DNA of 64,000 nucleotides, from assembly GCA_964016885.1 (NCBI GenBank), contig OZ024741.1:46748001-46812000 (forward strand). Direction: 5' to 3'. Under the pieces are notes generated by a model, which was given only the letters and a program-made list of their open reading frames with translations, was not told where the DNA came from and ran no database searches. Source of the DNA: Eledone cirrhosa (lineage: Eukaryota). Of the stretch, positions 16,841-56,200 are shown piece by piece. Within the stretch, counting starts at the first letter, position 1; every line of letters starts with the position of its first letter. The translations under genes and the position numbers were made by a program.

Positions 16841-17311
16841 ATTATTTTTTTTTTTTTTTAATGGGAAATGGTTATACGGTGTATCTGATATGATATAAGA
16901 CACAAACAAAAAAAAAAAAAAAGAAAAAAGAGAAAAATATAACACCTACAATTATTGACACGCAGACAAACCACAATTCTATAAATGTTTTCACGATTCT
17001 CTTTTCTCTCCTTTTTCTGCCTTTCGCTTCTCTCGCAAAAAAATAATTTTTATGAGGATGACAAGATGGAGTCTCTCTTCTCTTTAAATAGTGTTTTGGC
17101 GCGAAATAGTCCGCCATGTTGGATTTTTTTTTGTTGAGTTTTTAGGCCCCCCGAAATTAACGTAGATAACAGCATTCAAGTAATCGCTGGTTCGCACACT
17201 GTCCCGGATGCATTAGTTTTCCGGTTCAGTGCTCTGACGAAAGATTTTAGTTTCCATTTACTGTTACCTTAGAGACATTTTCCCCATACGGTAGATCACT
17301 ACGGCATACCA

Positions 17312-18106
17312 ATGGCTTCCCACTCTGTTCTGCCAACGTACACGGGCGACGTAAGGTTGTGGTTCTCGCAATTAGAAGCTTTCTTCAGGGCGAACAGAGT
17401 CGACGAGGAACTACAGCATTCTGTGGTCCTCAGTGCCATTCCGCCGGCAATTCTCCCAGCGGTCAAGGACCTCGTGTTGGAGGCAACGACAGAGTCGTCG
17501 TACGCGTCTCTGAAGGCTGAAATACTCAGCCGGACAGAACAGTCGTCAGAGAGGAGATTTAGGGCTCTGGTCCACCTGGAGCACATAGGGGATGGCACAC
17601 CATCGAACCTCCTTAGGCGGATGAAGGACCTAACGGAGGGGTCTGCAGCGGAAACTGCCCTGCTGAAGCAGTTGTTCTTTTCGCGCCTGCCGACGAACGT
17701 ACAGGCAATTTTGGCCCCCATGAGGGATTCGAGCTCGGTTGAGCAGCTTGCCTCATCGGCGGACAAGATATTCGAGGTGACGAATGCCGGAGACAGCGAC
17801 CCCCTCGCCGCTGTTCAACACCCAGCTCGGGCCACACACGGCCATGCGATCTACGCGGCAGCACCAACGGATAGCTTGGCGATCATTGCGATGCAAAGGT
17901 CCATTCAGGAGCTCACCATGGAGCTCCACAAGATGAAGGCCTTGTGTGGTGGCTGTTCGCGCTCCCGCAGTCGCGGGAGATCGCAAAGTTTCAGACGACG
18001 GTCCAAATCACCTGGTTCAGCCTTATGCTGGTACCACGAGCGGTTCGCGGAGAACGCGAAGCACTGCGTGCAACCTTGCTCCTATCATAAGGCGGGAAAC
18101 GCTTAA
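17312..18106 (+). CDS. gag: Gag
   Basis: 264 aa; [10 protein letters not shown]-terminus; C-X2-H-X9-C-X3-C ([18 protein letters not shown]). Confidence 0.93.
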
Positions 18107-18125
18107 GAGGTCCTCTGATGGGGAC
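18094..18125 (+). promoter_or_regulatory. -1 ribosomal frameshift signal
   Basis: G_GGA_AAC in the gag frame; pol lies in the -1 frame and is open from here; downstream hairpin GTCCTC-TGAT-GGGGAC. Confidence 0.8.
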
Positions 18126-21100
18126 AGATGTCCTCAACATAAAGCCACCAAACCGCCATTTCTTCATTAAGGACCTAATATCCGGAAGAGGTTTCCTCGT
18201 GGATACAGGAGCCTCCTGTAGTATCTGGCCGGTCCATTGCCTGAAAGATACCCCCATAGAGTCATCTGTCACGCTGCAGGCAGTTAACCACTCGTCTATA
18301 AAGACGTACGGGCAAATCTCGCTCCCTCTTAAATTCCTAAATCTCCGAAGGGATTTTAAGTGGATTTTTACGGTTGCCGATTTGCCATATCCCATCTTAG
18401 GAGCGGATTTCCTCCACAACTTCTCTTTAACTGTGGACGTCCGTGGCCAACGCCTGGTGGATAACATCACCGGCTTTTCAATTCATGGCCAGGAAGCCAA
18501 GGCCCCAATAGTCAGCCCCGTGTTCTTTATTGCTGCCGCTGGTGACGCTTACCATGCGTTACTGGGTTCTTTCCCGGAGCTCACGGATGGAAATTTTCGA
18601 GTCACTGACCCAACACACTCGACCGAACATTTTGTTTCCACCACCGGTGCCCCAGTGTTTTCGCGCCCACGCCGCTTACCGACGGAAAAATTAAAGGCAG
18701 CACGGTCCGAGTTCGACCATATGCTGCAGCTGGGCATTATTCGCCCATCTACGAGTCCTTGGGCTTCACCGTTACACATGGTGCCCAAGACTTCCGGCGA
18801 CTGGAGACCCACAGGGGATTATAGGAGGTTAAATGCCATGACCGTCCTGGATAGGTATCCCATTCCCCATCTCCACGATTTTGCATCTTCACTGCAGGGG
18901 TGTAGGATTTTTTCTAAGCTAGATTTAGTGCGAGCCTACCACCAAATTCCGGTCAGGAAGGAGGATATTCCGAAAACTGCAATTACAACCCCTTTCGGAT
19001 CATTCGAATTTTTGACCATGCCTTTCGGACTCAGGAACGCCGCTAGCACTTTTCAGCGGTTCATAGACGAGGTCACGCGTGGTCTGGACTTTGTTTATGC
19101 TTACATAGACGATATTCTCGTCGCTAGTTCCTCTCCGGAAGAGCATATGCGCCACATGCTTCTCTTACTTCGGCGACTTCAGGATTACCGCGTTCGCGTG
19201 AATCCTGCAAAGTGTGTTTTCGGTTCCACTTCCCTACATTTTTTAGGCCACCTCATCGACGCCGAAGGTATTAGGCCGCTCCCTGAGCGAGTTCAAGCCA
19301 TACAGGAGTTACCGCCGCCTACTACACTTCACCAGTTGCGTCACTTCTTAGGCCTAATCAATTTCTATAGGCGTTTCATTCCTCATTGTGCTAATTGGCT
19401 ATCTTCCCTTACTGACATTTTAAAAAAACGTCGTAAGAAGAATGAAGACATTTCCTTGACACAAGGACAGCTTCAGGACTTCCAGTCTGCCAAGACAGCC
19501 CTCGCTAGTTCTTCTTTGCTAGCCCACCCGGTACCAGAGGCCAAGCTTTCGCTTTGTGTTGATGCATCTGATACCGCTGTGGGTGCAGTTTTACAGCAGT
19601 CTTACGCTGAAAGCCAACAACCTTTGGCATTTTTCTCGAAGAAGTTGAAACCAGCAGAAACGCGTTATAGCACGTTTGGGCGGGAATTATTAGCCATATA
19701 TCTGTCGGTGAAACATTTCTCTCATATCCTTGAGGGGAGAAATTTTACGGTTTTTACCGACCACAAACCGTTGACCTTCGCTTTGAGGGCCAAAGCCGAC
19801 AGATATTCGCCCAGAGAGACAAGGCACCTGGACTACGTTTCACAATTTACAAACGATATCCAGCACATTGCCGGCTCGCACAACATAGTTGCAGACGCAT
19901 TATCTCGTTTGCCAATTAGCTCCATCTCGTCATCCCAGGACATCGATTTAGGTCGTTTAGCTGCAGACCAACCTGCACTCCAATCGTTGGACACTCTTTC
20001 CACCGAATTTGCGACTTGCATTTTCAAATATCTGCCCTTGTCCACCACCGACAGGCAGATCCTTTGTGATGTATCCACTGATGCACCACGACCACTTGTT
20101 CCTGAGACTCACCGTCGAATTGTGTTCCTGGCTCTGCACAACATTTCTCATCCAGGATCGGCTGCCACAGTTAAACTTATAACAGCCAGATTCTTCTGGC
20201 CTAATATGAGGCGAGACATTGCTGTTTTTTGCCGTTCCTGTATCGCTTGCCAGAAATCGAAGATCCATAGACACATCCGGACTCCACTTGGTACTTTCAC
20301 CACTCCAGATGCCCGGTTTCAACACATCCACATTGACATCGTTGGACCTTGGCCATTCAGCAGTGGATATTCATACATATTGACGTGTGTCGATCGTTTT
20401 TCGAGATGGCCTGAGGCCATCCCTTTACAAGACATGACGGCTGAGACTGTAGCACGTGCCCTGGTATCAGGGTGGATTACCCGCTTTGGGGTACCAACTA
20501 CACTCACCACAGACCGCGGTAGACAATTCGAGTCCCATCTCTTCTCTGAGCTCACAAAAATAATTGGAGCTCAACGGATTCGGACCACAGCCTATCATCC
20601 TGCTTCAAATGGAATGGTGGAACGATTCCACCGCCAATTAAAGGCCGCTCTTCGCGCCTATCCAGACTCTCAACGTTGGAGCGAGTACCTTCCTAATGTG
20701 TTATTAGGAATTCGGTCATCAATAAAGGAGGACCTTGGGTTCTCCCCGGCCGAATTAATCTACGGTGCTCCTCTAGCGTTGCCTGGGCAAATGCTTGCCC
20801 CTGTTGATCTTGCTTTCCAAGATCCGCTTTCCTACGTATCCCGTCTGCGTTCTTATTTACAGGACCTGCCGCCGATGGATACGAGGAAGCAAACTGTAAA
20901 ACATGCGGTCCCGAGGGACATTGCCTCGTGGACCCATGTGTTCGTAAGCAACGATGCTGTGAGACCACCCCTCACACAACCATACTCTGGACCCTACCGT
21001 GTGTTAGCACGCACTGACAAACATTTCACAGTAGACGTTAAGGGGTCCAGAGAGACAATTTCGGTGGATAGACTGAAAAGGGCACACAATGACGCTCATA

Positions 21101-21246
21101 CACCCGAGCCACAAATACCCCAATCTTTCACCATTGTGCATACACCTGCTCCTTCTGCCCCACCATCACCTACATACAAGACTACGACCCGTTCCGGTCG
21201 GAGAGTCCACTGGCCCAAAAAGTTCTGCCAAACTATTTTTATATGA
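18118..21246 (+). CDS. pol: Pol polyprotein (PR-RT-RNaseH-integrase), probably made as a Gag-Pol fusion
   Basis: DTGA, YIDD, DAS...RELLA, HHCC, D-D-E and GPY motifs; 1042 aa uninterrupted. Confidence 0.97.
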
Positions 21247-28989: not shown

Positions 28990-31045
28990 GCAAAAGATAA
29001 CGACAAATTCACCTCATGCTGCCGGACGAAAGGGCAAGGCCCCCCCTCTCTTTGTTGCGGCCGCGGATGGCCAACATAACCCCAACCCCATCCACCTCAC
29101 CCCTCCCTGCACCCCACCCACCAAACGCAATCCAAAACTTCAGAGTTGGTACCATGAATGTAGGGACCTTAAAAGGCCACTCTAACGAGGTTGTAGAAAT
29201 GCTTGAACGTAAGGAGGTTGATGTTTGCTGTATCCAAGAGACCAGGTGGAGGGGCGGGTCTGCTAGATTCATTGTGGGTAAAAAACGATGCTATAAGCTT
29301 TTCTGGGTGGGAAATGACAATGGGCTGGGTGGGTATCATATAGCAGAAAAATGGGTGGATAAGATAATAGACGTAAATAGAGTAAACGACAGAATAATTA
29401 AAATAAGACTTGTTCTAAATAGAACTACTGTGACGATAATATCTGCGTACGCACCCCAATCCGGACTGCCTGGCGCTATAAAAGACAGTTTCTATGAGAC
29501 ACTGATGCTCACTACCTCCCAAATAACCGACAGTGACTATATAATTATTGCTGGCGACCTAAATGGTCACGTTGGACAACATTGTGACGGCTATGATAGA
29601 ATCCACGGAGGCTATGGGTTTGGTACTAGAAATGAGGAAGAATCCTGGAATTCTGTGACGCAAATAACCTAACTATCTGTAACACTAACTTCAAAAAACA
29701 AGACAATCACTTGATCACCTACAGATCAGGGGAACATACCAGCCAGGTAGATTATATCCTTACCGGAAGACGTGACAGAGTGTCTGTTGTAAACACTAAA
29801 TCCCTCCCCCATGAAGAATGCACCTCCCAACATAGACTGATAATTAGCGACCTCATAGTCAGGACGAGACGTACTCGACAGCAGAAGAGGACTATCCTCA
29901 GGAGAAAAATATGGAAGCTAAAGGACCCCACAACCAGAAATAAATTTAAAAGCATATTACTTGATGCTTCCGTCAGTAAGGAAGAGCATTTAGAGTCGTA
30001 CAATATAGAGGAATAGTGGGAATTCCTGAAAGCAAACATGCTGATGGCGGCAGACGAAGTCTGTGGCCGGAGCAGGCCTATAGGCAGGAGGAGAGTAACA
30101 TGGTGGTGGAACAGTAAGGTGGAGGAGTCAATTAAGGTCAAAAAGCAGGCTTGGAAAGTATGGCGGGATGGGGGAAGTAGAGAAGACTATCAAGTGGCCA
30201 GGAGGGAAGCTAGGAGACAAGTGTACATCGCAAGAAGGGAAGCAGAGGAAAGAAAGTTCAAGCATGTTCTACAACGCGAGGACCAAAAACGTGAGGTGTT
30301 CAGGATTGCTAGGCAATGTGTCAAGGAAAACCGTGATATTGTTAGGGAGAAGTGTGTACTTAATGATGATGGCGTACTTGCCATCACTGACGCTGATAAG
30401 AAGGTAGCTTGGAAGTGTCACAACGAAAGGCTACTAAATGAGGAGAATAAATGGGAGAAAGACAGTCGCCCCTACATCGACCCAATAGAGGGACCGGCAG
30501 TGTTAGTCGAAGGTAGTATAATAAGTAAGGCAATCAAAGATATGAAGACGGGTAAGGCGGCTGGGCCTTCGGAAATAGTTGCTGAAATGCTGAAAGTCTC
30601 TGGAACGGTGGGACACACCATGGTCACCCGGATAGTAAACCAAGTCATACAGAATGGGGTTGTTCCGAAGGACTGGCGTAGCAGCATCATCATTAACTGC
30701 TACAAGGGTAAAAAAGATGCCCTAGATAGGAGTAACTATAGGAGCATTAAATTAATCGACCAGGTCATGAAAGTCACAGAAAAAGTAATAGCGCAACTAA
30801 TCAGAGAGAGAATTGATCTAGATGAAATGCAGACGCTCTTTTCATTGTACGACAACTACAGGAGAAGTACCTAGCTAAAAGTAAACCCCTATACTTAGCT
30901 TTTGTCGACTTGGAGAAAGCCTTCGACAGAGTCCCCCATTCCATTATCTGGTGGGCTCTTAGAAAACTAGGTGTTGATGAATGGCTTGTGAGAGCTATAC
31001 AAGCCATGTATAAAGAAACAGTCAGCAAGGTTAGAATTAACAATG
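28990..31045 (+). mobile_element. RTE-clade LINE, 5' half (APE + N-terminal RT), disrupted and 3'-truncated
   Basis: GTMNVGTL, CIQETRW, SAYAPQ, GDLNGHVG, KAAGP, FVDLEKAFDRV. Confidence 0.92.
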
Positions 31046-31533
31046 TACGTAAAATTATTTATTCTCTTAATCTCTTCTGGTTTTTTAGGTTTATTAGGGC
31101 TTATAAGCTTTATGCGCTTATTGAGGTGTTTTTTAAGGTGCTTTTAAGAGATCCCAAGTCTTTTACTTTTAATGCGTAACTTATAAATTCTTTAATTTTT
31201 AACCTTCAATCCCTAACTTTTAGGCCCTTTTCAAATTCTCTTAATTCCCTCTAACCCATCCCTTTTACAACTCCTACAACTATTATAAAAGAGCCCCCTT
31301 AGAATATAGACCCCAGATAAACAAGCTGAGCTGTTGATGTATACCACGATTTCAAACTGCTAATCTTGAGTGAAACGTTGATGAAAATAATGAACTTACA
31401 ATTACTTGTTATATGCCTTGAAAAGTCCCACCATATGTGATCATCGCGATTTACGTACGACCTACCATACATCTTGCTTATTTAGCTCGCTCCGGTAGAG
31501 CTTAATCTTCACTGAAAGACAAACCGCCCTGGG

Positions 31534-34137
31534 GTGGCTTTTCACTACACCGACAGTATACTGACAAAGGACCATCTTCCGTTATCACTTAAGAATATAC
31601 CCATATCACCAAGGGATACTTATGAAAAGCAGCTTATAGCCAGCGTTAATCCGTTTGTAAGGAGAATAAGATGGCGCACCTTCCACTTCGATAGACGCCG
31701 TAGCGCCCCACTAGAGAGTCCATCGAATAATAAGTATGGGTTTACGACATTTAGGAGCTCCCCCCATAACCCTCTACTCGATAAATTTGAGAGTGACCTA
31801 TTGTCTCTCGTCCAGTCTATTAGGTATAAAAAAAAAAACAGTAAGCCTAGCGGCTTCCAAACTGAGTTAGAATCACTAGTTAAATCTTTTAAGGACAGGA
31901 ATTGTATACTCGTACCCTCGGACAAGACTAAGAATATGTACAGCCTGAGTTATGAAGAATACCGCGGATTCATATACAAAGAACTACATAAAAACTATAA
32001 AAAAACCACTGTAGCCAACCTAAATGAGATTAACAGGGAGGCTAAAGTGATAGTAACGAAGCTAGGATTAGAGAAATGCACACAGCCTTACATCCCCCGC
32101 CAACCAAGGTTCACGTTGAAAGATCATAAGGAGGACTTTGCAAATAGCCCCTCTGTCAGGCTCATAAGCCCCTCTAAATCTGACATAGGGATTATAAGTA
32201 AAAAAAATACTGGATGAAGTCATACCTAAAGTTAAGGATAGGATTAGCCTGGAGCTGTGGGGAAACACTGCGGAAGTGATAAAGTGGTTCTCAAGCATTA
32301 GCAACCACAAATCACTACGCTTCATCCAGTTTGATATAGACTCCTACTATACGTCTATATCTCCTATAATACTGAATAAGGCGCTCATACTGGCAATGCG
32401 GACAGGCGGAATCACTAGATCCCAGATTGACATAGTTCTTGCCGCTCGTAAAACAATTATCACATTTGAGGATGAATTGTGGACGCGCAAGAACACACAT
32501 AATAACTTCGACATCACTATGGGTCTAGTGACTCGGCACAGGTGACAGACCTCGTCGGCTTATACCTGCTCAAGGAGCTCAACGAGCAGTTCCCACACCT
32601 CAGAGGTGGGCTGTACCGTGACGACGCATTGCTTACTGTGGAGTTTAAACGACACAACCTAGAAAGAACTAGAAAGGACCTATATAAATTCTTCAAGAGC
32701 TTTAACCTATCAATAACTATGGATAGAAATATAAGGTAGTCAACTTTCTAGATGCCACACTAGACCTAGATAAGTTAGAATATGCACCGTACCATAAACC
32801 TAACGAGAGGCTGACATACGTCAATGCCAGCTCCAACCACCCAGGCTCAGTCCTCAAAGCAATAGTTAAGGGAGTATCTAGTAGGATTAGCGGACTATCT
32901 AGCAGCGTGACCGCATTTAAGGCGAACGCGGAGTATTACAATAAGGCGCTAGCTGGGTCAGGGCACAAAGATAAACTTCATTATATTGAGACAAATGGCA
33001 CCACCCCACTACCCCAACCCAGCACTATAATCACACATATGTCCATGGGGGATGGAGGGAGGTCTAGAAAGACGAATAGGGACAATAAGAATTTAGGTAA
33101 GAACACCAACACTCGCAATGCAGACTCGGATAGGGCCCGCACGGTTGGAAAGCGTTACGCCGCCCCAAGCAAGACCAACAGTGAAAACGGGGGCCAGAGG
33201 TCTAGGAGATTCGAGACCAGTACACATACTACCGGGAGCCCAGGACGCACACCTGGCAGAACCCATAATAATCTAGATAAAGGGAGGTTAAGCAGCATAG
33301 GGGATACGAAACGCAGTGGAAAGAATAGAAGATGTAATAGCACCTTCTTTAACCCGCCCTTCAACTCTAAATTTATTACAAACCGCCCCAAATATTTTTT
33401 CTCTTTGATAGATAGGAACTTCCACCCAGGTAGTAGGTACGGTAGTGTCATCAATAAGAAAACTATCGTACTCGACAACCCCTAATCTGGCCTCCCACCT
33501 AGCCAAGACCAATAAGAATAAGATTAAAGAGGGACTTAAGGCCATCCGAAATAGTGAACCACGCCAGTACACACGACAACATGGGACCAACCCACTGAGT
33601 GAAAGACCCAGGGGGATAACAGGCAATAAACCCGGTCCCACTAGGCAGCCCCGCGGCCGCTTGGAGGGACATACACCCCTGATTGAGGAGCACGACCCTA
33701 TTAGGAAGTGTAATTGCCGACGGAAGGACAAATGCCCACTAGCTGGACACTGTCTTATTAAGAACGTAGTATATGCTTGTAATGTAACCACAGACACGTA
33801 TACTAAGACGTATATGGGGTCAACCGCTAACCAGTTCAAGACGAGATTCAACGCCCACCAGCATAGCTTCCAAAATGAGAAGCTTAAAAATACCACATCG
33901 TTAGCGGGACACATACATAACTTAAAACAAGCAAAAACCCCCTACACACTAAGCTGGAGATCCCTTACTAAAGCTCCTCCATATAGCTCGTTAAGCAGGT
34001 TTTGTAGCCTGTGCCTAACTGAATCTCATGCCATAGTATTCTCAGGACTTAACTTGCTCAACAGGAGGTCAGAAATCTTCTCGTCCTGCCCCCATACTAT
34101 ACTTAGCTCTTTCTTTTTCTTCAGACCGGACACCTAA
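31534..34137 (+). mobile_element. Near full-length Naiad-type PLE ORF (RT + GIY-YIG), several frameshifts
   Basis: SLKNIPI, PSDKTKN, LKDHK, FDIDSYY, GGLYRDDAL, YHKPN, CNCRRKDKCPLAGHCL, YMGST, CSLC. Confidence 0.92.
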
Positions 34138-35418
34138 CCCTGACCCCACCCTGTCTCGCACATGGCTGCCCCGCTGGCGAATAGGTTGCTCTTGAGTAAC
34201 CCCGGCCCCAGTGATGCCTCGGCTCCCCACTTGCCGATGGGGACTCTGGTGAGGAACAGTCGATCCTGTGTCCCACTTGTCAAAATGGGATTGGTGACAG
34301 CATTGTTGCTGGGCGCTCTGGGAGCCGCTGATGCCTGCAGTGTGGGATATTGCGAGTGCCTGGACCCACGCCGCCTGGTCTGAGGATGTACCGTCGGGGA
34401 TACATAACACATTCGGGAATTTGCCCAAGAGAACAGTAGCGGAGCACCCAATGTGGCGGCTTTTCCCTGCCTGTAACCAATCACCCCTCCCCCACCCAAT
34501 GGCTCCCCCTCCCCATTCTCTCCCATTCATTTTTTTTGAGTTCGTTCTTTATTAATAAGGATTTTTTGTATATTACCACGGTTGACATAAGTTTGGAGAG
34601 TTGACTCCCTTGATGTCTGACCACTCGATAAGATAGGGATTATGCCCCTTGAACTAGGGTATATCTTGCTAGTCTACCTGCTGTCAGCTACTACCCGCGA
34701 CTGGACATGGTGGTAGCCACAGGCCTGCGCATGCGCGGTAGCATGGAGTATGTATTTTCTGCTAGTCACCCCGTGTAATATGATACCCCAATATTCCATG
34801 CACGGGAATCACCAAAGCATGCGCAGACTTAACCGGGAGATGACATGCGAATTTGAAAATACCACAAGAGAGATCCTTTAGATAGCATAGACGCCGGACC
34901 ATACCCGCAAATATCTGCATATACACCGTGATCTATCTTGAATATGCATAACTGACAGGATATAGAAGCAACATGGATAATACGACCACCATCTAAGCTA
35001 GAACAGACTCCTACTACATATAACAACAAACAAAGAGGGGACAGTCCTTAGCATTTAACCAGTCACGTGTGAACTTGGAATTGGTGAGAGGAGGGGATAA
35101 TAGCGAGAGACACAATATACCACCCCAGCCAAAACTGGACTTTTTTACCAATATATCCTATACAGCAAAACTTTTGATTTAGAACCGGCAGGCTGATCTA
35201 TCGCAAACGCGTGCGATCCCACGCATGGCTTAATAACTGGCACGACCGAAACTACATGGAAAAGATCGAACGGAGCACACCCTGCGACTACTAGCTGTTT
35301 GATCAGCAGGTCCATCTCCCAGAGAGTGCACACAGCTGATAGTGAATCCCAGTTGATTCGTGAACTTTTCAACAAGACCAACTGTACCCGGAGCTATACA
35401 GATGATACATATATACAT

Positions 35419-35771: not shown

Positions 35772-36882
35772 TCATCATCATCATCATCATCATCAGGTTT
35801 AGCGTCCGTGTTCCACGCTTGCATGGGTTTGGACGGGGGTTTTCCCACTTGAGGCAAGAGTGGTTGTCTTGCTCGCATAGGACTGTCTGGCGGGTTTTCT
35901 ACAGTTGGATGCCCTTCCTAACACCAACCACATTTACAGTGTGGGGCTGGGAGGTTTTTACCGTGTTGCCTACACGGCCACATTACAGCGTGGACTGTCT
36001 GGCGGGTTTTCTACAGCTGGATGCCCTTCCTAACACCAACCACATTTACAGTGTGGGGCTGGGAGGTTTTTACCGTGTTGCCTACATGGCCACATTTACA
36101 GCGTGGACTGTGTGTTTTTTGTCGTGACACCTACACGATCTCATTTGTTTCGGCCTGGATGTTGTGGGACCAACATAACTTTACATTGAAAGGGGCGGTG
36201 TGGGTGGGGTGGAGGTGGTGGGGCGGGGGTGTGTTTTGATAGAGATGCCTACTGACTGTAGTAGGTTTTTACTTTGTATTTAGGTAAGGCGGGTCTTCTC
36301 TATTACTGAGTACCGCCAAAGGTCTCGGTCCAGTGACATTGTCTTGGAGAGGTGTAAGCGTGTGAGGTCGGAATTTATCAGCTCGTCCCATGTTTTTCTG
36401 GGTCTGCCTACTCCGTGGCTACCGTCTATCTTTATTGCCCTGCACTTTGTTATACAGCTGTCGTCTTTCATGCGCATCACGTGACCGTACCAACGTAGCC
36501 TTCTCTCGAGTAAACAACATCTGATCCCTCTTATTTCTAATTTTTTCCTTAGTTCGTTTATGCTTTGCCGTTCACGTATATTACTATTGCACATCCAGCG
36601 GAGCATGCAAGCTTCGTTCCTCTCTAGTCTGCGTATATCCTCTGCACACAATGCCCAGGTCTCACTGCCATGCAGCATTGCTGTTCGTATGCAGGCATCG
36701 TATAACCTGCCTTTCATCTTTAGGGAGAACCCTCTAGCGGCTAATAGTGGTATAAGCTCTCTGAACTTTTTCCATCCAGTTCTGACTCTAGCTACTGTAC
36801 TTTCAGAGCACCCTCCCCCACTGCTGATTTTGTCACCCAGATAACGGAAGCTGTCCACTATTTCTATAGAACCCTCTGCGCA
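35772..36882 (-). mobile_element. RTE LINE 3' fragment with an internal ~112-bp 3' UTR duplication
   Basis: Near-identical to 49504-50495; ORF 36280-36882; (GAT)n tail. Confidence 0.92.
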
Positions 36883-36968
36883 GTATATATATATACATAT
36901 ATATATATACATATATATATATATACATATATACATATATATATATACATATATACATATATATATAT

Positions 36969-37546
36969 GGTGGTGGCTGCCAACTTGTTTTCGAGTACGG
37001 CCACTACTTTATATCTATGTAAGAGAACTCCTACCGATGCACTGAACGAGTGACATTTTAGTCCAGTCAGCGACTTGAAAACTCTGGTACAAACACTACA
37101 CTTGTGACAATTATTGACACATAGTGCTGGGCCCATGGTACCATGTGACGACAAGTTCAGAGAGATCTCCAGATATAAAGCAATGCCTGTGCCGTGAAGC
37201 TTTTATACTGCACAAAGCCAGTCCCACTCTCTTAACCAAGATGATATTTACCAAAAAGAAGAACAAGTCAACATCATTGGATACCATCAGAGTTGCAGGT
37301 GTTATATCAGAGTTTTCCTTCTCCTAGAATTCTGCCTTGACAAAGGCTAAGGGGTCATCTCTCCCGGTGATTTTGGATGGCCATTGACTCTTAAGAGCTC
37401 CTTTGCCGTTTGACAGGTTTTGTTTTTAGTCCTGCAGGATGTCCAAAGTCACCCTCACCAAGAAACCTTGGTGGGGTTGCCAGTTTAGTCGCCAACGACC
37501 CGACCATGAGACAGGTTGTACTGGGATACATGTTACCAGTAGCACC
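36969..37546 (-). mobile_element. Non-autonomous RTE-like derivative, copy 2
   Basis: Aligns to 25256-25852. Confidence 0.7.
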
Positions 37547-37681: not shown

Positions 37682-38510
37682 TTTACACCCTCCTTCTCTC
37701 TAACTATCAAAACTAATGTAGGAAGGAAATTCCTTGACCTCTTAGATAAACATTTTCCTCCTAATCATAGATATTATAAGATATTTAATAGAAATGTAGT
37801 TACTCTTGTTGCCCATCAATGAAGTCTAAGATCACTAATGCAAATCGTACGAGAACAAATCCAGGATGCAGTTGCAGGAAGACGGATGAATGCCCATTAC
37901 AGGGCAAATGTAACACCAAATCCGTTGTTTATGAGGCCAAAGTGACAACCTTTAATCAACAACCAGCCAGCCAGGAGTGAGCGATATGTTGGCATGAACC
38001 AGGACAGGTTTAAAACCAGGTTTTATGCACATGTCGCTTCTTTTAAGCACTCCGATAAAAGAACGGCAACGGCCCTCGCAAGTAAGGTGTGGGAATTCAA
38101 GGATAAAAACATCCCGTACTCTATCGATTGGTCTATTTTAGACCATTCGAGGGAGTACCAAAGGGGCACAAAGAATTGTTCTTTGTGTTCCACGGAAAAA
38201 TATAGGATTTTACAAAACTTGAAAGCCACTTCTGCTTGCCTGAACTCAAAGACCGGGATCTTCAGATGTTGTCCTCACCTGAAATCACATCTGTAACTGG
38301 ATTGACATTCCTACGATAACTCAACCACCTTGAACTCCTTCTCTGCTCTTTACTTCCACTACGGTTTTTTTTACCTGCTGAATCCACGTTCTGTACTCTC
38401 GTATTCTCTTTCTCCCTTATCTCCCCTTATATTTAAACTTTTTCCTATGTCATTTATTTCCTTTTTTCCCCCCTACTTTCTACCTTACCCTTCACATAAC
38501 CAATTTTTTT
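37675..38510 (+). mobile_element. Naiad-type PLE 3' fragment (GIY-YIG)
   Basis: [48 protein letters not shown]. Confidence 0.85.
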
Positions 38511-38545: not shown

Positions 38546-39605
38546 TGTTGCGTATGTCGACCTTGAGAAAGCCTTTGACAGAGTTCCACGTGCTGTAATC
38601 TGGTGGGCTCTTAGAAAACTAGGAGTAGATGAATGGCTTGTGAAAGCGGTACAAGCCATGTATAGGGGAGTAGTCAGCAAAGTTAGGATTAGCAATGAGT
38701 ATAGCGAGGAATTTAGCGTACAGGTTGGGGTCCACCAGGGCTCTGTTCTTAGAACTCTCCTGTTCATCATAGTCCAGCAGGCAAAAACGGAGGAGTTTAA
38801 GACCGGATGCCCATGGGAACTCCTGTATGCTGATGACCTCGCACTCATAGCTTAATCTATGGTAGAACTAGAGAATAAATTCCAAACTTGGAAGCAGGGA
38901 CTAGAAAGAAAGGGTCTCAAAGTCAACATGACAAAGACTAAGGTCCTTGTAAGTAGACGAGAAAACAGAACCCATATCCCCTCGGGGAAATGGCCTTGCT
39001 CAGTATGTAGGAAAGGTGTAGGTAGGAACTCCATTCTCTGCCCCAAATGCAAACAATGGGTACACAAGAGATGTAGCGTGATCTCAGGAAGCTTAATTAA
39101 GAATGTAGGATTCACATGCAGCAGCTGTGCTGAGGCAGCAAACAGCCACAGGAAACAAGTACCACCAATCTCTGGGAGGGCCCTGTAGAAACAGTAGACA
39201 GCTTCTGCTACATAGGTGACCAAATTAGCAGCGGAGGTGGGTGTTAAGAAGTTTAGGGAACTACTACCACTGCTAGCTGCAAAAGGCTTCTCCCTCAGAA
39301 TGAAAGGCAGACTGTATGATGCGTGTACCCAAACAGCGATGTTGCATGGTAATGAGACCTGGGCGCTGAAGGTGGAAGACTTACGTAGATTAGAGAGAAA
39401 CGAAGCCTGCATGCTCCGATGGATGTGTAACAGTAATATATGTGAACGACAAAGCATAAATGAATTGAGAGAGAGAGATTGAGCATAAGAGGAATCAAAT
39501 GCTGTGTGCAGGAGAGGCGGCTGCGCTGGTATGGACATGTGATGCGTATGAAGGATGACAGCTGCATAAAAAAGGTGCAGAGCACTAGAAGTTGATGGAA
39601 ACCGC
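38546..39605 (+). mobile_element. RTE LINE RT fragment, related subfamily, disrupted
   Basis: DLEKAFDRV, GVHQGS, LLYADDL. Confidence 0.9.
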
Positions 39606-53266: not shown

Positions 53267-56200
53267 AAATAAACTAAGTCCAGATGCATCACTGCTTTTT
53301 GTTTTCTTGATAATATCTACACTCTACTCTGATGAATATCGAGTGCTAATTTTGTCATACCGCCTACGGAAGAACCATAGCTACCACTATACACAAATAT
53401 ATACTACGCTCCTCCACTAGTAGAGCGCTTACAGTGATTCGCCATGGAAAAATTCAACTACTCTTCTTCCATGAAAGACATACCGATCCAGTCAGATAAC
53501 ACGTACATGAGCCTGCTGTTATACCACACCAACTTGTTCACCAGACGCATGAGGTGGCGCACATTTCACCACGACAGGCAGACACAAGAACAAGCGCCAG
53601 AGAACCCCTCAGGACCGCCTAAAGTGGATTTTTAGATCGAGAAGACACCCACCACACAATGCACAACTGGAGGAATTTGAAAACCGTATGGTCAACATAG
53701 TTCGTAACATCAAGTTCCATAGGAATACTGCGCGACGGACAAAATATCTCAAGAGTCTCGGATCCACCATCAAAAGCATGGAAAAATGCAAGGATTTACT
53801 CGTACCCTCGGACAAGACCGGTAATGTATACATGTTTGACCGTTTTAAATATAATGAATGCCTCGGGAAGGAGATTAGGAAAAACTATAGGACCACTGGA
53901 CAGACAAAGTTAGATAGTATTAACGCCACGGCAAAAAGTATACTGACGGGGCTAGGACTAGAGGATAGGACCGAGGTATATGTACCTAGAAGACCACGTA
54001 TATCTATTAAGGACCACAAATTAGACTTTAAAACTAAACTACCGGTTAGGTTAATAGCACCCTCCAAATCCGACCTAGGAAAGACCAGTAAGAATATTAT
54101 AGATAAGATAATACCGGTACATAGAAACAAAACTAAGCTTAGCCTATGAACTTCCACTAAGGAGGTAATTGACTGGTTCTCAGCAATAGATGACAAACAC
54201 CAAGTAAATTTTATCCAGTTAGACATAGATAGCTATTACACAACGGTATCTCCGATACTAGTTAATAAGGCCCTAATAAGAGCCATGGCCAGATCTAACC
54301 TCACTAGAGACGAGACCAACCTAATAGTAGCAGCCAGAAAGATGCTAATTAGTTTCGAAGACAAGTTATGGGAGAGGAGGGACAGACTCGACAATTTCGA
54401 TATCACCATGGGGTCAAGTGAGTCGGCACAGGTGACCGACCTGGTGGGGATATATCTCATCCATAGGCTGACGGAGGAGATCCCAGGGATCGGAGGTGGA
54501 ATATACAGAGACGACGCACTTTTCACCTTCCGTTTCCTTAACCCCAGTCAGATGGAGCGCATATCGCATTTCTTTAAACAGTACGGCTTATCCCTGACTA
54601 TTAACACTAGCACTAAGACGGTCAATTTCCTGGACGTTGCCTTGGAAATGAATACGGGCATCCACAGACCGTACCATAAGCCCAACGAAAACCTGCAAAA
54701 TGTGAACAGGCAATCAAATCACCCTAAGTCAGTCATAGGAGCCATAGTTAAAGGGGTGTCAAAACGCGTATCCACCCTATCGTCAAACGCAGAAGTGTTT
54801 AAACAGCACGCCGAATATTATAATGAGGCACTGCGCAGGGCCGGTTACAAAGACACCATAGTATATACCCCAGATAGAGTAGAGCCTAACGATATGGCGT
54901 GCAGAAATGACAATAGTGGGGGCGCCTCTTTAGGTAGAAGAATTGATCCGGTAGCAGTAGCCAGGAACACAAATAACAACAATACTAACTTTAATGACAC
55001 AGGACCGACCAGAGATAGGACTAAGGCACCCATGGGAGCCAGACCACCCGGTGTGCGGAGGCATAGGCATGGCACGTACACTGCATACTCAGTGGAAACT
55101 GGGACCTTGGACAGAACTTCGACAAATAAAAACGGGGCACATGCCACGGAGCACGACCAGCCTAGTTCTAGTGCCACAGCACTGACAATAGCATCACATA
55201 GACCTGAGGGGAATAGACGTATAGATGACCACATAGAACAACGTATATTTACAACGGTAGAATATAACCACGACGAACGTAGCAGGCTAATAGACAGGGG
55301 CAACACACGAGACGAAATTGAGGTCGGGCCGAGCACCTGGGTCGGCAACGAGCCCTAGACACAACAACATGAATCCACGCACATGAAGGAAGAGATCTAA
55401 GGCCGTTACCTGGTTCAATGCGCTATACTCTAAACATGTACGCACCAACGTGCCAGGAATTTTCTTCCGAGCGCTGGATGAGTGCTTTCCGACCACAAAA
55501 TCTTCAACCGCCACACGGTGAAATTTTCCTTCTCCGCGGCACCGAATATGGCCGACTGCATGGCTAGAACTAACACGGTGAAGATGGCGCACACTGGTCG
55601 TCAACCGCGCTGACAGAGTGACCATGTTTTGGAGCGCAGAGAACCACCTAGGGACCTGCCTTCAAATGACAACCCGGTCCCCGAGGCGACCAGAGCGCCT
55701 GTCGAGGGCAATATGGTCCAACACTGAGAGGGAAATAGTGGCATGGGGGGGGGGGGACAAGTGTGGCGACAGTGCAGGACAATGAGAACCTTGAGAGGGC
55801 CATTACAGATCAGGGCCCGGACATCGGATGCACAAGAATTGACAGCAGAACTTGCAACTGTAGAGCGAGCACCCAGTGCCCCCTACAGGGAAAATGCTTA
55901 ATGAAGGACCTAGTATACAAGTGTGTGGTTACGACCCAGAATGTGCATCGAACCTACATAGGGGCAACATCCACGACCTTTAAATCGGGGATGTATAATC
56001 ACACGAATTCCTTCAGGGACCGTAGCAAAAGGCACACCACTAGGTTAGCGGACCTCATTTAGGACATGAAAGACCACGGCACCCCATACGCCCTGGAATG
56101 GAGTATCGTTCACCATAAGCGTGCATATTCGGCCGGAAGTAGAAAGTGCCAACTGTGCCTACACGAGGCCATGGAGATAGTCAGACTGAAGGATGGCGCC

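What the first reader, a model, noticed from the sequence alone, without database searches (positions are those of the whole stretch)
34140..34470. Tandem pseudoknot-rich RNA domain directly after the Naiad stop codon
Seen: a GC-rich island with two similar modules. TCCCCA-CTTGCCGA-TGGGGA has a loop that can pair with TGGTGAG (34224-34253). TCCCA-CTTGTCAAAA-TGGGA has a loop that can pair with TGACAG (34271-34300). A third candidate has CTGGGCGCTC/GAGTGCCTGG with inner GTGTGGG pairing to CCCACGC (34309-34371). Further hairpins: GGTTGCTC/GAGTAACC, ATGTA/TACAT, CACATT/AATGTG. It does not fit SECIS, hammerhead or HDV patterns. Inference: an undescribed structured RNA, for example an RT-binding scaffold, nuclease block or new ribozyme.
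Basis: partly seen in the sequence, partly recalled or inferred. Interest (0 to 1): 0.75.

Follow-up and report, generated by a model that had tools for sequence, protein, structure and literature searches.

The report
Long hairpin behind Hydra retrotransposon gene
The supposed tandem pseudoknots are by-products of an imperfect 200-base inverted repeat just after the stop codon of a Penelope-type jumping gene; it is predicted to fold into one long RNA hairpin, its pairs were spared and tightened as the family evolved, and it likely serves as a protein-bound signal on the element's unusually long RNA tail.

Summary
The pairings are in the sequence, but the reading changes.

The element is not a Naiad. 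RT precedes GIY-YIG, and the RWR, DKT, CxCX5C, CxxC and CxH motifs plus a (TA)n end mark the Hydra clade. About 100 copies form an age ladder; the window copy is in the oldest group.

The pseudoknot model fails across copies. There is no covariation. Pseudoknot 1's loop helix falls from 6 to 4 of 6 pairs and pseudoknot 3's from 7 to 4 of 7 in younger copies. Only pseudoknot 2 stays possible.

Instead, 34152-34349 is a degenerate inverted repeat predicted to form one rod-like hairpin on the sense RNA. Its inner paired columns carry 5 major changes in 70, against 54 in 238 elsewhere. Watson-Crick pairs rise from 42 to 49 of 64, with two compensatory sites. Discovery-corrected support is moderate (P 0.02-0.06).

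The rod is family-specific and has no Rfam match. The family's hammerhead lies 2.8 kb downstream. Function is inferred only: a docking site that stabilises or transports the long-tailed mRNA. The scan noted the Hydra tail hairpin before on other DNA; three look-ups showed no note on this rod.

The parts
31052..31437 (+). Upstream pseudo-LTR remnant of the element; the hammerhead part is deleted in this copy
   Evidence: 97% match to the family's terminal region, then a gap of about 135 family bases
31485..31501 (+). Bulged GCTC...GAGC tail hairpin at the pLTR-ORF junction (inner pair mutated in this copy); likely RT start signal
   Evidence: Same hairpin in 9 other Hydra-type loci with inner pairs CC/GG, CU/AG, CAC/GUG; role inferred from PMC11167929
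31516..34137 (+). Hydra-clade Penelope-like ORF (RT, then linker and C-terminal GIY-YIG at 33697-34134), broken by frameshifts and stops in this copy; stop TAA at 34135-34137
   Evidence: Motifs RWR, DKT, CxCX5C, CxxC, CxH; intact 877-aa frame in copy L088; dN/dS 0.15 between old and young groups
34152..34349 (+). Degenerate inverted repeat centred near 34257, predicted rod-like hairpin: P1 34152-61/34340-49, P2 34164-72/34321-29, P3 34182-91/34311-20, inner stem 34208-49/34265-34306
34224..34253 (+).
   Evidence: Loop helix 6, 6, 5, 4, 4 of 6 pairs from oldest to youngest group
34271..34300 (+).
   Evidence: 5 of 5 and 6 of 6 pairs in all five groups; chance of staying intact 0.056; rod fold 10 kcal/mol better than the local hairpins in the youngest group, pseudoknot energy not modelled
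34309..34371 (+).
   Evidence: Outer helix 10 to 8 of 10, inner 7 to 4 of 7 from oldest to youngest group
34478..34556 (+). Pyrimidine-rich tract behind the GC island (77% C/T)
34138..35405 (+). Proximal 1.27 kb of a 3' non-coding region that is about 2.9 kb in full copies; this copy ends in (TA)n about 1.65 kb before the family end, so it lacks the 3' hammerhead

Best explanation
The GC island is an imperfect inverted repeat at the start of the 2.9-kb 3' untranslated region of one Hydra-clade Penelope-like family, predicted to fold on the sense RNA into a single rod of about 200 bases that likely acts as a docking site for double-stranded-RNA-binding proteins which stabilise or transport the element's mRNA. 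Shown: the element class, the inverted symmetry, the loss of pseudoknots 1 and 3 in younger copies, and the sparing and tightening of rod pairs. Inferred: origin by a fold-back duplication; selection on the sense RNA; folding in cells; the function. The pseudoknot look arises because both arms carry the same short words (TCCC/GGGA, TGCC/GGCA), so loops find partners nearby. My odds: 0.7 that the rod is real and selected, about 0.45 that it works as a protein-bound stability or transport signal.
For: A model of the region matches its own minus strand at E 7.8e-7. Only one 49-base diagonal with 27 or more Watson-Crick pairs exists in old group A1. From A1 to the youngest group it gains 1-2 pairs where random placement of the same changes loses 6-7 (P about 0.002). 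Paired columns: 5 major alleles in 70, against 8 in 28 unpaired (p 0.008) and 54 in 238 elsewhere (p 0.003), while rare post-insertion alleles are equal (1.21, 1.11, 1.03 per column). Compensatory sites: 34229:34285 A.G, A-U, G-U, G-C along the ladder; 34157:34344 C-G in 44 copies, U-A in 44. Of 24 group-level changes on rod columns 7 turn G-U into Watson-Crick, 5 create a pair, 2 keep one, 6 stay in mismatches, 4 break a pair; G-U states 13, A.C states 2. On 40 distinct copies: cells paired 2 of 500 shuffles, cells with double change 1 of 500. Young copy L095 folds as the rod at z -3.56, its minus strand at -1.65. The protein was under purifying selection over the same span.
Against: The outer helices were chosen after seeing all groups. 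A simulation that repeats the discovery gives only P 0.02 (energy), 0.05 (conservation index), 0.06 (consistent pairs), 0.41 (double changes), and the coding control also reaches P 0.03 on energy and z -2.8 against -3.4 for the rod. The number of pairs with double changes is not above shuffles (372 of 500), and one lineage gives few independent events. The G-U excess is partly built in, since helices were chosen allowing G-U. The rod is not the predicted minimum-energy fold in the window copy or its group; inverted symmetry is not significant there (49 and 59 of 200 shuffles); young copy L151 folds at only z -1.23. Ensemble-overlap tests between old and young copies show no conservation of the overall fold. 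The domain as a whole diverges at the synonymous rate (59 of 336 against 10 of 56). None of 14 other UTRs has such a repeat, so Hydra elements do not generally need it. No evidence on function, and no A-to-G editing trace in the rod.
Confidence: 0.45

Rival explanations
1. Functionless fold-back relic: an inverted duplication made by template switching, whose symmetry is kept by occasional arm-to-arm copying during reverse transcription or simply by luck in one lineage.
For: Neutral overall divergence; absent from sister families; one copy carries an inversion between the two modules (L051); inverted copies are typical of PLE insertions (PMC8557442 section 6); discovery-corrected P only 0.02-0.06.
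Against: Gains are single-site, at different ladder steps, with neighbouring mismatches left (34230:34284); G-U intermediates persist in whole groups, which copying would not produce; paired columns are spared while rare alleles are not.
Confidence: 0.27
2. The rod is selected as long double-stranded RNA that limits the element: a substrate for Dicer or ADAR that dampens or retains its mRNA.
For: Pairs tighten toward Watson-Crick with time; length of about 60 pairs suits such enzymes (general knowledge).
Against: No A-to-G excess among private alleles on rod columns (4 against 8 T-to-C); frequent internal loops; tightening occurs in the lineage that kept transposing.
Confidence: 0.12
3. Pseudoknot 2, alone or as one state of a switch with the rod, is the functional unit (nuclease block or protein site).
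For: Both of its helices are intact in all five groups; U-G becomes U-A at 34277:34300 in young copies; the window copy has a double change at 34280:34297.
Against: Intactness has P 0.056 alone and 0.117 for any one of three and is also explained by the rod; the double change is in 1 of 77 copies, within the shuffle expectation; pseudoknots 1 and 3 decay.
Confidence: 0.11
4. A new self-cleaving ribozyme or an RT-binding scaffold.
For: Position in a PLE 3' UTR; a CUGAGGA word in old copies.
Against: CUGANRA is in 17 of 21 old copies, of which 1 has GAAA; GAAA is in 76 of 80 younger copies, of which at most 6 have CUGANRA. No invariant unpaired core, unlike the real hammerhead, where only N7 and loop positions vary in 61 copies. 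A better RT-start candidate lies at the pLTR-ORF junction.
Confidence: 0.05

Closest known systems
Hydra clade of C-terminal EN+ Penelope-like elements, incl. Hydra-1_Obim (Craig et al. 2021, PMC8557442; seen: abstract, sections 6, 11, 15, passages, supplement part 2 of 59)
   Same: Domain order, RWR/DKT/CxCX5C/CxxC/CxH motifs, (TA)n target, pLTR and tandem copies, hammerhead near the 3' end.
   Different: Listed Hydra consensus lengths are 1.1-3.0 kb, with the hammerhead about 90-430 bases from the listed end; this family is about 5.85 kb with a 2.9-kb 3' region, an 877-aa ORF, a U3-A8 hammerhead core and the rod. Related families in this genome have hammerheads 1.4-2.4 kb after the stop, behind unrelated sequence.
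Naiad elements (PMC8557442)
   Same: Penelope-like, (TA)n targeting.
   Different: Naiads have an N-terminal GIY-YIG domain, DKA and no canonical hammerhead; none of this holds here.
Stem-loop localisation signals bound by Egl-BicD, including the I-factor retrotransposon ILS (PMC13186709; seen: passages)
   Same: Imperfect bulged double helix in an mRNA, read by shape; precedent in a retrotransposon.
   Different: Those are short stem-loops in Drosophila, the ILS lies in coding sequence; no binding or localisation was tested here.
Rous sarcoma virus RNA stability element and PTBP1 shielding from NMD (PMC4764554, abstract and outline; PMC5580461, search listing)
   Same: Element directly after a stop codon that faces a very long 3' UTR; pyrimidine tract nearby.
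   Different: That element works through PTBP1 sites near the stop; here the tract starts about 340 bases after the stop and the proximal part is a GC-rich helix. Analogy only.
Poseidon PAc RT initiation stem-loop (Frangieh et al. 2024, PMC11167929; seen: abstract, passages)
   Same: Shows PLE RT uses an RNA stem-loop.
   Different: It lies at the pLTR-ORF junction, matching the tail hairpin at 31485, not the region behind the stop.

Membership tests
Hydra-clade PLE | RT followed by C-terminal GIY-YIG | tested here: met
   Pfam gave no hit, so by motif reading
Hydra-clade PLE | RWK-type motif and DKG changed to DKT | tested here: met
   RIRWRTF and VPSDKTK in the window frame; definition in PMC8557442 section 11
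Hydra-clade PLE | CxCX5C linker; CxxC and CxH around the conserved E and N | tested here: met
   CNCRRKDKC, CSLC, CPH
Hydra-clade PLE | Hammerhead near the 3' end and insertion in (TA)n | tested here: met
   Hammerhead with U3-A8 core in 61 family copies, deleted or truncated in the window copy; (TA)n at ends
Hydra-clade PLE | Placement in the Hydra clade on an RT tree with published references | not tested
   Trees held only sequences from this genome
Naiad | N-terminal GIY-YIG, DKA motif | tested here: not met
   C-terminal domain, DKT
Conserved tandem H-type pseudoknots | Both helices of each pseudoknot kept or covarying among copies | tested here: not met
   pseudoknots 1 and 3 broken in younger groups; no covariation
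Hammerhead ribozyme, any strand order (inside 34138-34470) | CUGANGA and GAAA core halves in the same molecule | tested here: not met
   (motifs recalled); Rfam negative
SECIS element | RUGA...AA...GA motif and in-frame UGA in the ORF | tested here: not met
   Pattern in 2 of 101 copies (motif recalled); intact copy L088 reads 877 aa without UGA; stop is TAA or TAG in 124 of the 126 loci listed (loci not de-duplicated)
HDV-like, twister, pistol ribozymes; IGR IRES | Family core motifs or Rfam match | tested here: not met
   Rfam; rough recalled patterns in 0-1 of 101 copies
xrRNA (XRN1 block) | Ring-forming junction and pseudoknot that stalls XRN1 | not testable with these tools
   No Rfam match; needs an assay
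Egl-BicD-type localisation signal or RSE-type stability element | Protein binding and effect on localisation or decay | not testable with these tools
   Analogy from PMC13186709 and PMC4764554

The most novel reading that the evidence does not exclude
A Penelope-like lineage that grew a 2.9-kb 3' UTR recruited a fold-back duplication as a new 200-base cis-acting rod, and its dated genomic copies record the RNA being refolded and tightened step by step, from a hairpin-and-pseudoknot state in the oldest copies to a long helix in the youngest, giving a PLE-encoded shield against nonsense-mediated decay or a germline transport signal.
Probability: 0.2. Interest if true: 0.65.

Novelty: new variant of a known kind. 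Interest (0 to 1): 0.36.

Why it matters
PLE RNA cis-elements other than the hammerhead are almost unstudied. A selected long hairpin behind the stop codon would be a testable handle on how elements with very long tails escape decay or reach the germline nucleus. The graded series of copies offers natural compensatory mutants. If neutral, it is a clear case of how an old inverted repeat mimics tandem pseudoknots in a single copy. It is confined to one family of about 100-150 copies, which limits its reach.

Tried and rejected
Tandem pseudoknots: rejected. Local three-way junction with the hairpin 34337-34353: five compatible changes, but no excess over shuffles for the whole model, and its 3' strand changes fit P1 as well. 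Direct duplication of module 1 to module 2: weak (5-6 of 200 shuffles in two old copies, 38 and 116 of 200 in others); the inverted relation fits more copies. A 73-aa small ORF at 34162-34380: dN/dS 1.44 against 0.15 for the endonuclease, stays open by chance in 55% of simulations, no Pfam hit; the Atlas look-up returned no result. Stop readthrough: another stop follows one codon later in nearly all copies. ADAR footprint on the rod: none. tRNA: none. miR-182 hit: 20.8 bits against a cut-off of 71. Homologues elsewhere: covariance model found nothing in 49 loci of sister families and metagenome Hydra elements; exact patterns found nothing in viral or prokaryote collections; all 15 extra pattern hits checked were truncated or interrupted copies of the same family, no ORF-less derivative. 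Protein search gave 1 relative at 40%. Expression: no RNA holder listed; laid DNA runs showed the same alleles as the genome copies. Literature: eight searches showed no paper on a 3' UTR pseudoknot or long hairpin in Hydra elements by listing; PMC13282606 has no occurrence of hairpin, UTR, ribozyme or Hydra. Only part 2 of 59 of the Craig supplement was read and bioRxiv supplements are closed, so a published consensus of this family is not excluded.

Full report
OBSERVATION. Nested folding of 34138-34470 is ordinary (z +0.55). A descriptor fitted to the two H-type pseudoknots finds two here, at least one in 77 of 1000 shuffles and two or more in 3 of 1000; it was tuned to the case. Rfam has no match at gathering score and only chance hits below it.

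THE ELEMENT. The window lies in a 3.0-Gb genome, octopus-type by inference. The ORF upstream has RT first and GIY-YIG last, with RWR, DKT, CxCX5C, CxxC and CxH. These define the Hydra clade in Craig et al. 2021 (PMC8557442 section 11); Naiads have the endonuclease in front. A protein search scored 150 of 61,463 candidates: 100 at 80-100% identity (this family) and 50 at 61-63%. The unit is about 5.85 kb with about 2.9 kb behind the stop. A hammerhead with a U3-A8 core lies at the far 3' end; in 61 copies only N7 and loop positions vary within it. The window copy has lost it at both ends. Sister families have long tails of unrelated sequence; metagenome relatives mostly have a hammerhead 100-250 bases after the stop.

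AGE LADDER. 101 copies covering endonuclease and proximal UTR were aligned and split by diagnostic letters into five groups of 13, 8, 29, 27 and 24. Singleton changes per site are 0.0106, 0.0054, 0.0068, 0.0045 and 0.0026, and an RT tree of 25 sequences rooted on a sister family puts the window's group first, with modest support near the root. No ancestral states were inferred, so the order of changes rests on this group order. The endonuclease has dN/dS 0.15 between old and young groups, so the differences arose in active source elements. The domain differs at 59 of 336 sites, equal to four-fold sites (10 of 56), and is among the fastest tiles of the element.

PSEUDOKNOTS FAIL. From oldest to youngest group the loop helix of pseudoknot 1 has 6, 6, 5, 4, 4 of 6 pairs; the third candidate 10 to 8 of 10 and 7 to 4 of 7; the two small 3' hairpins 5 to 4. 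Shared alleles in the nine helices keep pairing in 14 of 33 cases, rare alleles in 46 of 118. On 83 gap-free rows (77 distinct) of the 101, no measure exceeds shuffles. Pseudoknot 2 stays possible in all groups, with P 0.056 under random placement. The window's own double change at 34280:34297 is 1 of 77 rows, within expectation.

WHAT IS THERE INSTEAD. RNAalifold paired module 1 with module 2, and a covariance model of the region matched its own minus strand at E 7.8e-7. The best inverted repeat, centred near 34257, is reached by 1, 1, 11 and 0 of 200 shuffles in four copies but by 49 and 59 in two copies of the oldest group, one being the window. In old group A1 only one 49-base diagonal has 27 or more Watson-Crick pairs, 34201-34249 with 34313-34265. 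To the youngest group it gains 1 Watson-Crick pair and 2 pairs overall, where random placement of the same substitutions loses 7.0 and 5.7 (P 0.0026 and 0.0016). Major alleles: 5 in 70 paired columns, 8 in 28 unpaired, 54 in 238 elsewhere; rare alleles are equal across classes, so this is no mutational cold spot. Three outer helices continue the rod to 34152 and 34349. Watson-Crick pairs rise 42, 45, 47, 47, 49 of 64. Two sites are compensatory: 34229:34285 and 34157:34344. Of 24 group-level changes 4 break a pair. G-U states outnumber A.C 13 to 2, pointing to the sense RNA. With every second of 80 gap-free copies plus the window (40 distinct), three of five measures are reached by at most 2 of 500 shuffles and two are not above shuffles; that control ignores relatedness.

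LIMITS. The outer helices were picked with all groups in view. A simulation repeating the discovery gives P 0.02, 0.05, 0.06 and 0.41 on the plus strand, 0.23-0.90 on the minus strand, and the coding control reaches 0.03 on energy; column-shuffle z is -3.4 for the rod but -2.8 for the coding control. The rod is the predicted fold in young copies (z -3.56 and -1.23), not in the window copy, which has private breaks at 34186 and 34323. Ensemble overlap between old and young copies is no higher than random. The oldest group folds 10 kcal/mol better than the next by local helices, so an earlier fold may have been given up. None of 14 other UTRs has a comparable repeat (best 3 of 40 shuffles), and the model finds no homologue in 49 loci.

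MECHANISM. Shown: position, symmetry and substitution pattern. Inferred: a fold-back duplication supplied the arms, and selection on the sense transcript kept the helix. I commit to a protein-bound helix that helps the mRNA survive or travel, because the family has a 2.9-kb tail, a known trigger of decay (PMC4764554, abstract), and because a retrotransposon stem-loop can serve as a transport signal (PMC13186709, passages). Neither was tested. RT initiation is more likely at the bulged tail hairpin before the ORF, as in PAc (PMC11167929, passages). Catalysis belongs to the distal hammerhead.

VERDICT. Observation partly confirmed; interpretation partly supported. A family-specific, probably selected long hairpin in a Hydra element, not tandem pseudoknots in a Naiad. 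New variant of a known kind; interest 0.36.

Noticed in passing
window 31485-31501 and 53408-53426; L034:1384, L080:538, L188:1579, L190:2121, L191:3736, L192:835, L193:2028, L194:2271: Bulged hairpin GCTC-inner stem-TA/TT-GAGC downstream of the hammerhead in Hydra-type elements from this genome and from metagenomes, with compensatory inner pairs; a second, longer copy lies 59 bases after the hammerhead in this family. Earlier scan notes describe the same twin hairpins.
   Followed up: partly
L031 near 6700; L152 about 2430 bases after the stop: The family's hammerhead has U3 and A8 in place of C3 and G8, fixed in the family; only N7 and loop positions vary.
   Followed up: partly
L074, L168, L177, L180, L181, L182, L185: Several related Hydra families in this genome have hammerheads 1.4-2.4 kb after the stop, with tails unrelated between families, suggesting repeated UTR expansion or replacement.
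   Followed up: partly
L170-L183 and L176, L180, L186, bases 200-460 after the stop: Hints of conserved structure in two sister families (alignment z -2.8 and -3.2); these families are more diverged and better suited to covariation tests.
   Followed up: no
L051 / L027, equivalent of window 34250-34280: One copy carries an inversion of the segment between the two modules, bounded by short inverted words.
   Followed up: no
window 33697-34134 in family copies: Private A-to-G changes exceed T-to-C on the sense strand of the endonuclease region (34 against 12, p 0.011), not in the rod; possible editing trace.
   Followed up: no
window 34162-34380: 73-codon frame with a hydrophobic end, open in 75 of 101 copies but with dN/dS 1.44.
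   Followed up: yes
window 37690-38296 and from 53400: Two further Hydra-type elements of other families in the window.
   Followed up: no
window 17273-21246: Element with a gag-like frame at 17273-18106 (+) and a long frame at 18091-21246; appears to be an LTR retrotransposon, not examined.
   Followed up: no
window 29001-31050, 36280-37008, 38560-39000: Decayed LINE-like fragments (endonuclease and RT); the Hydra copy interrupts the one ending near 31045.
   Followed up: no
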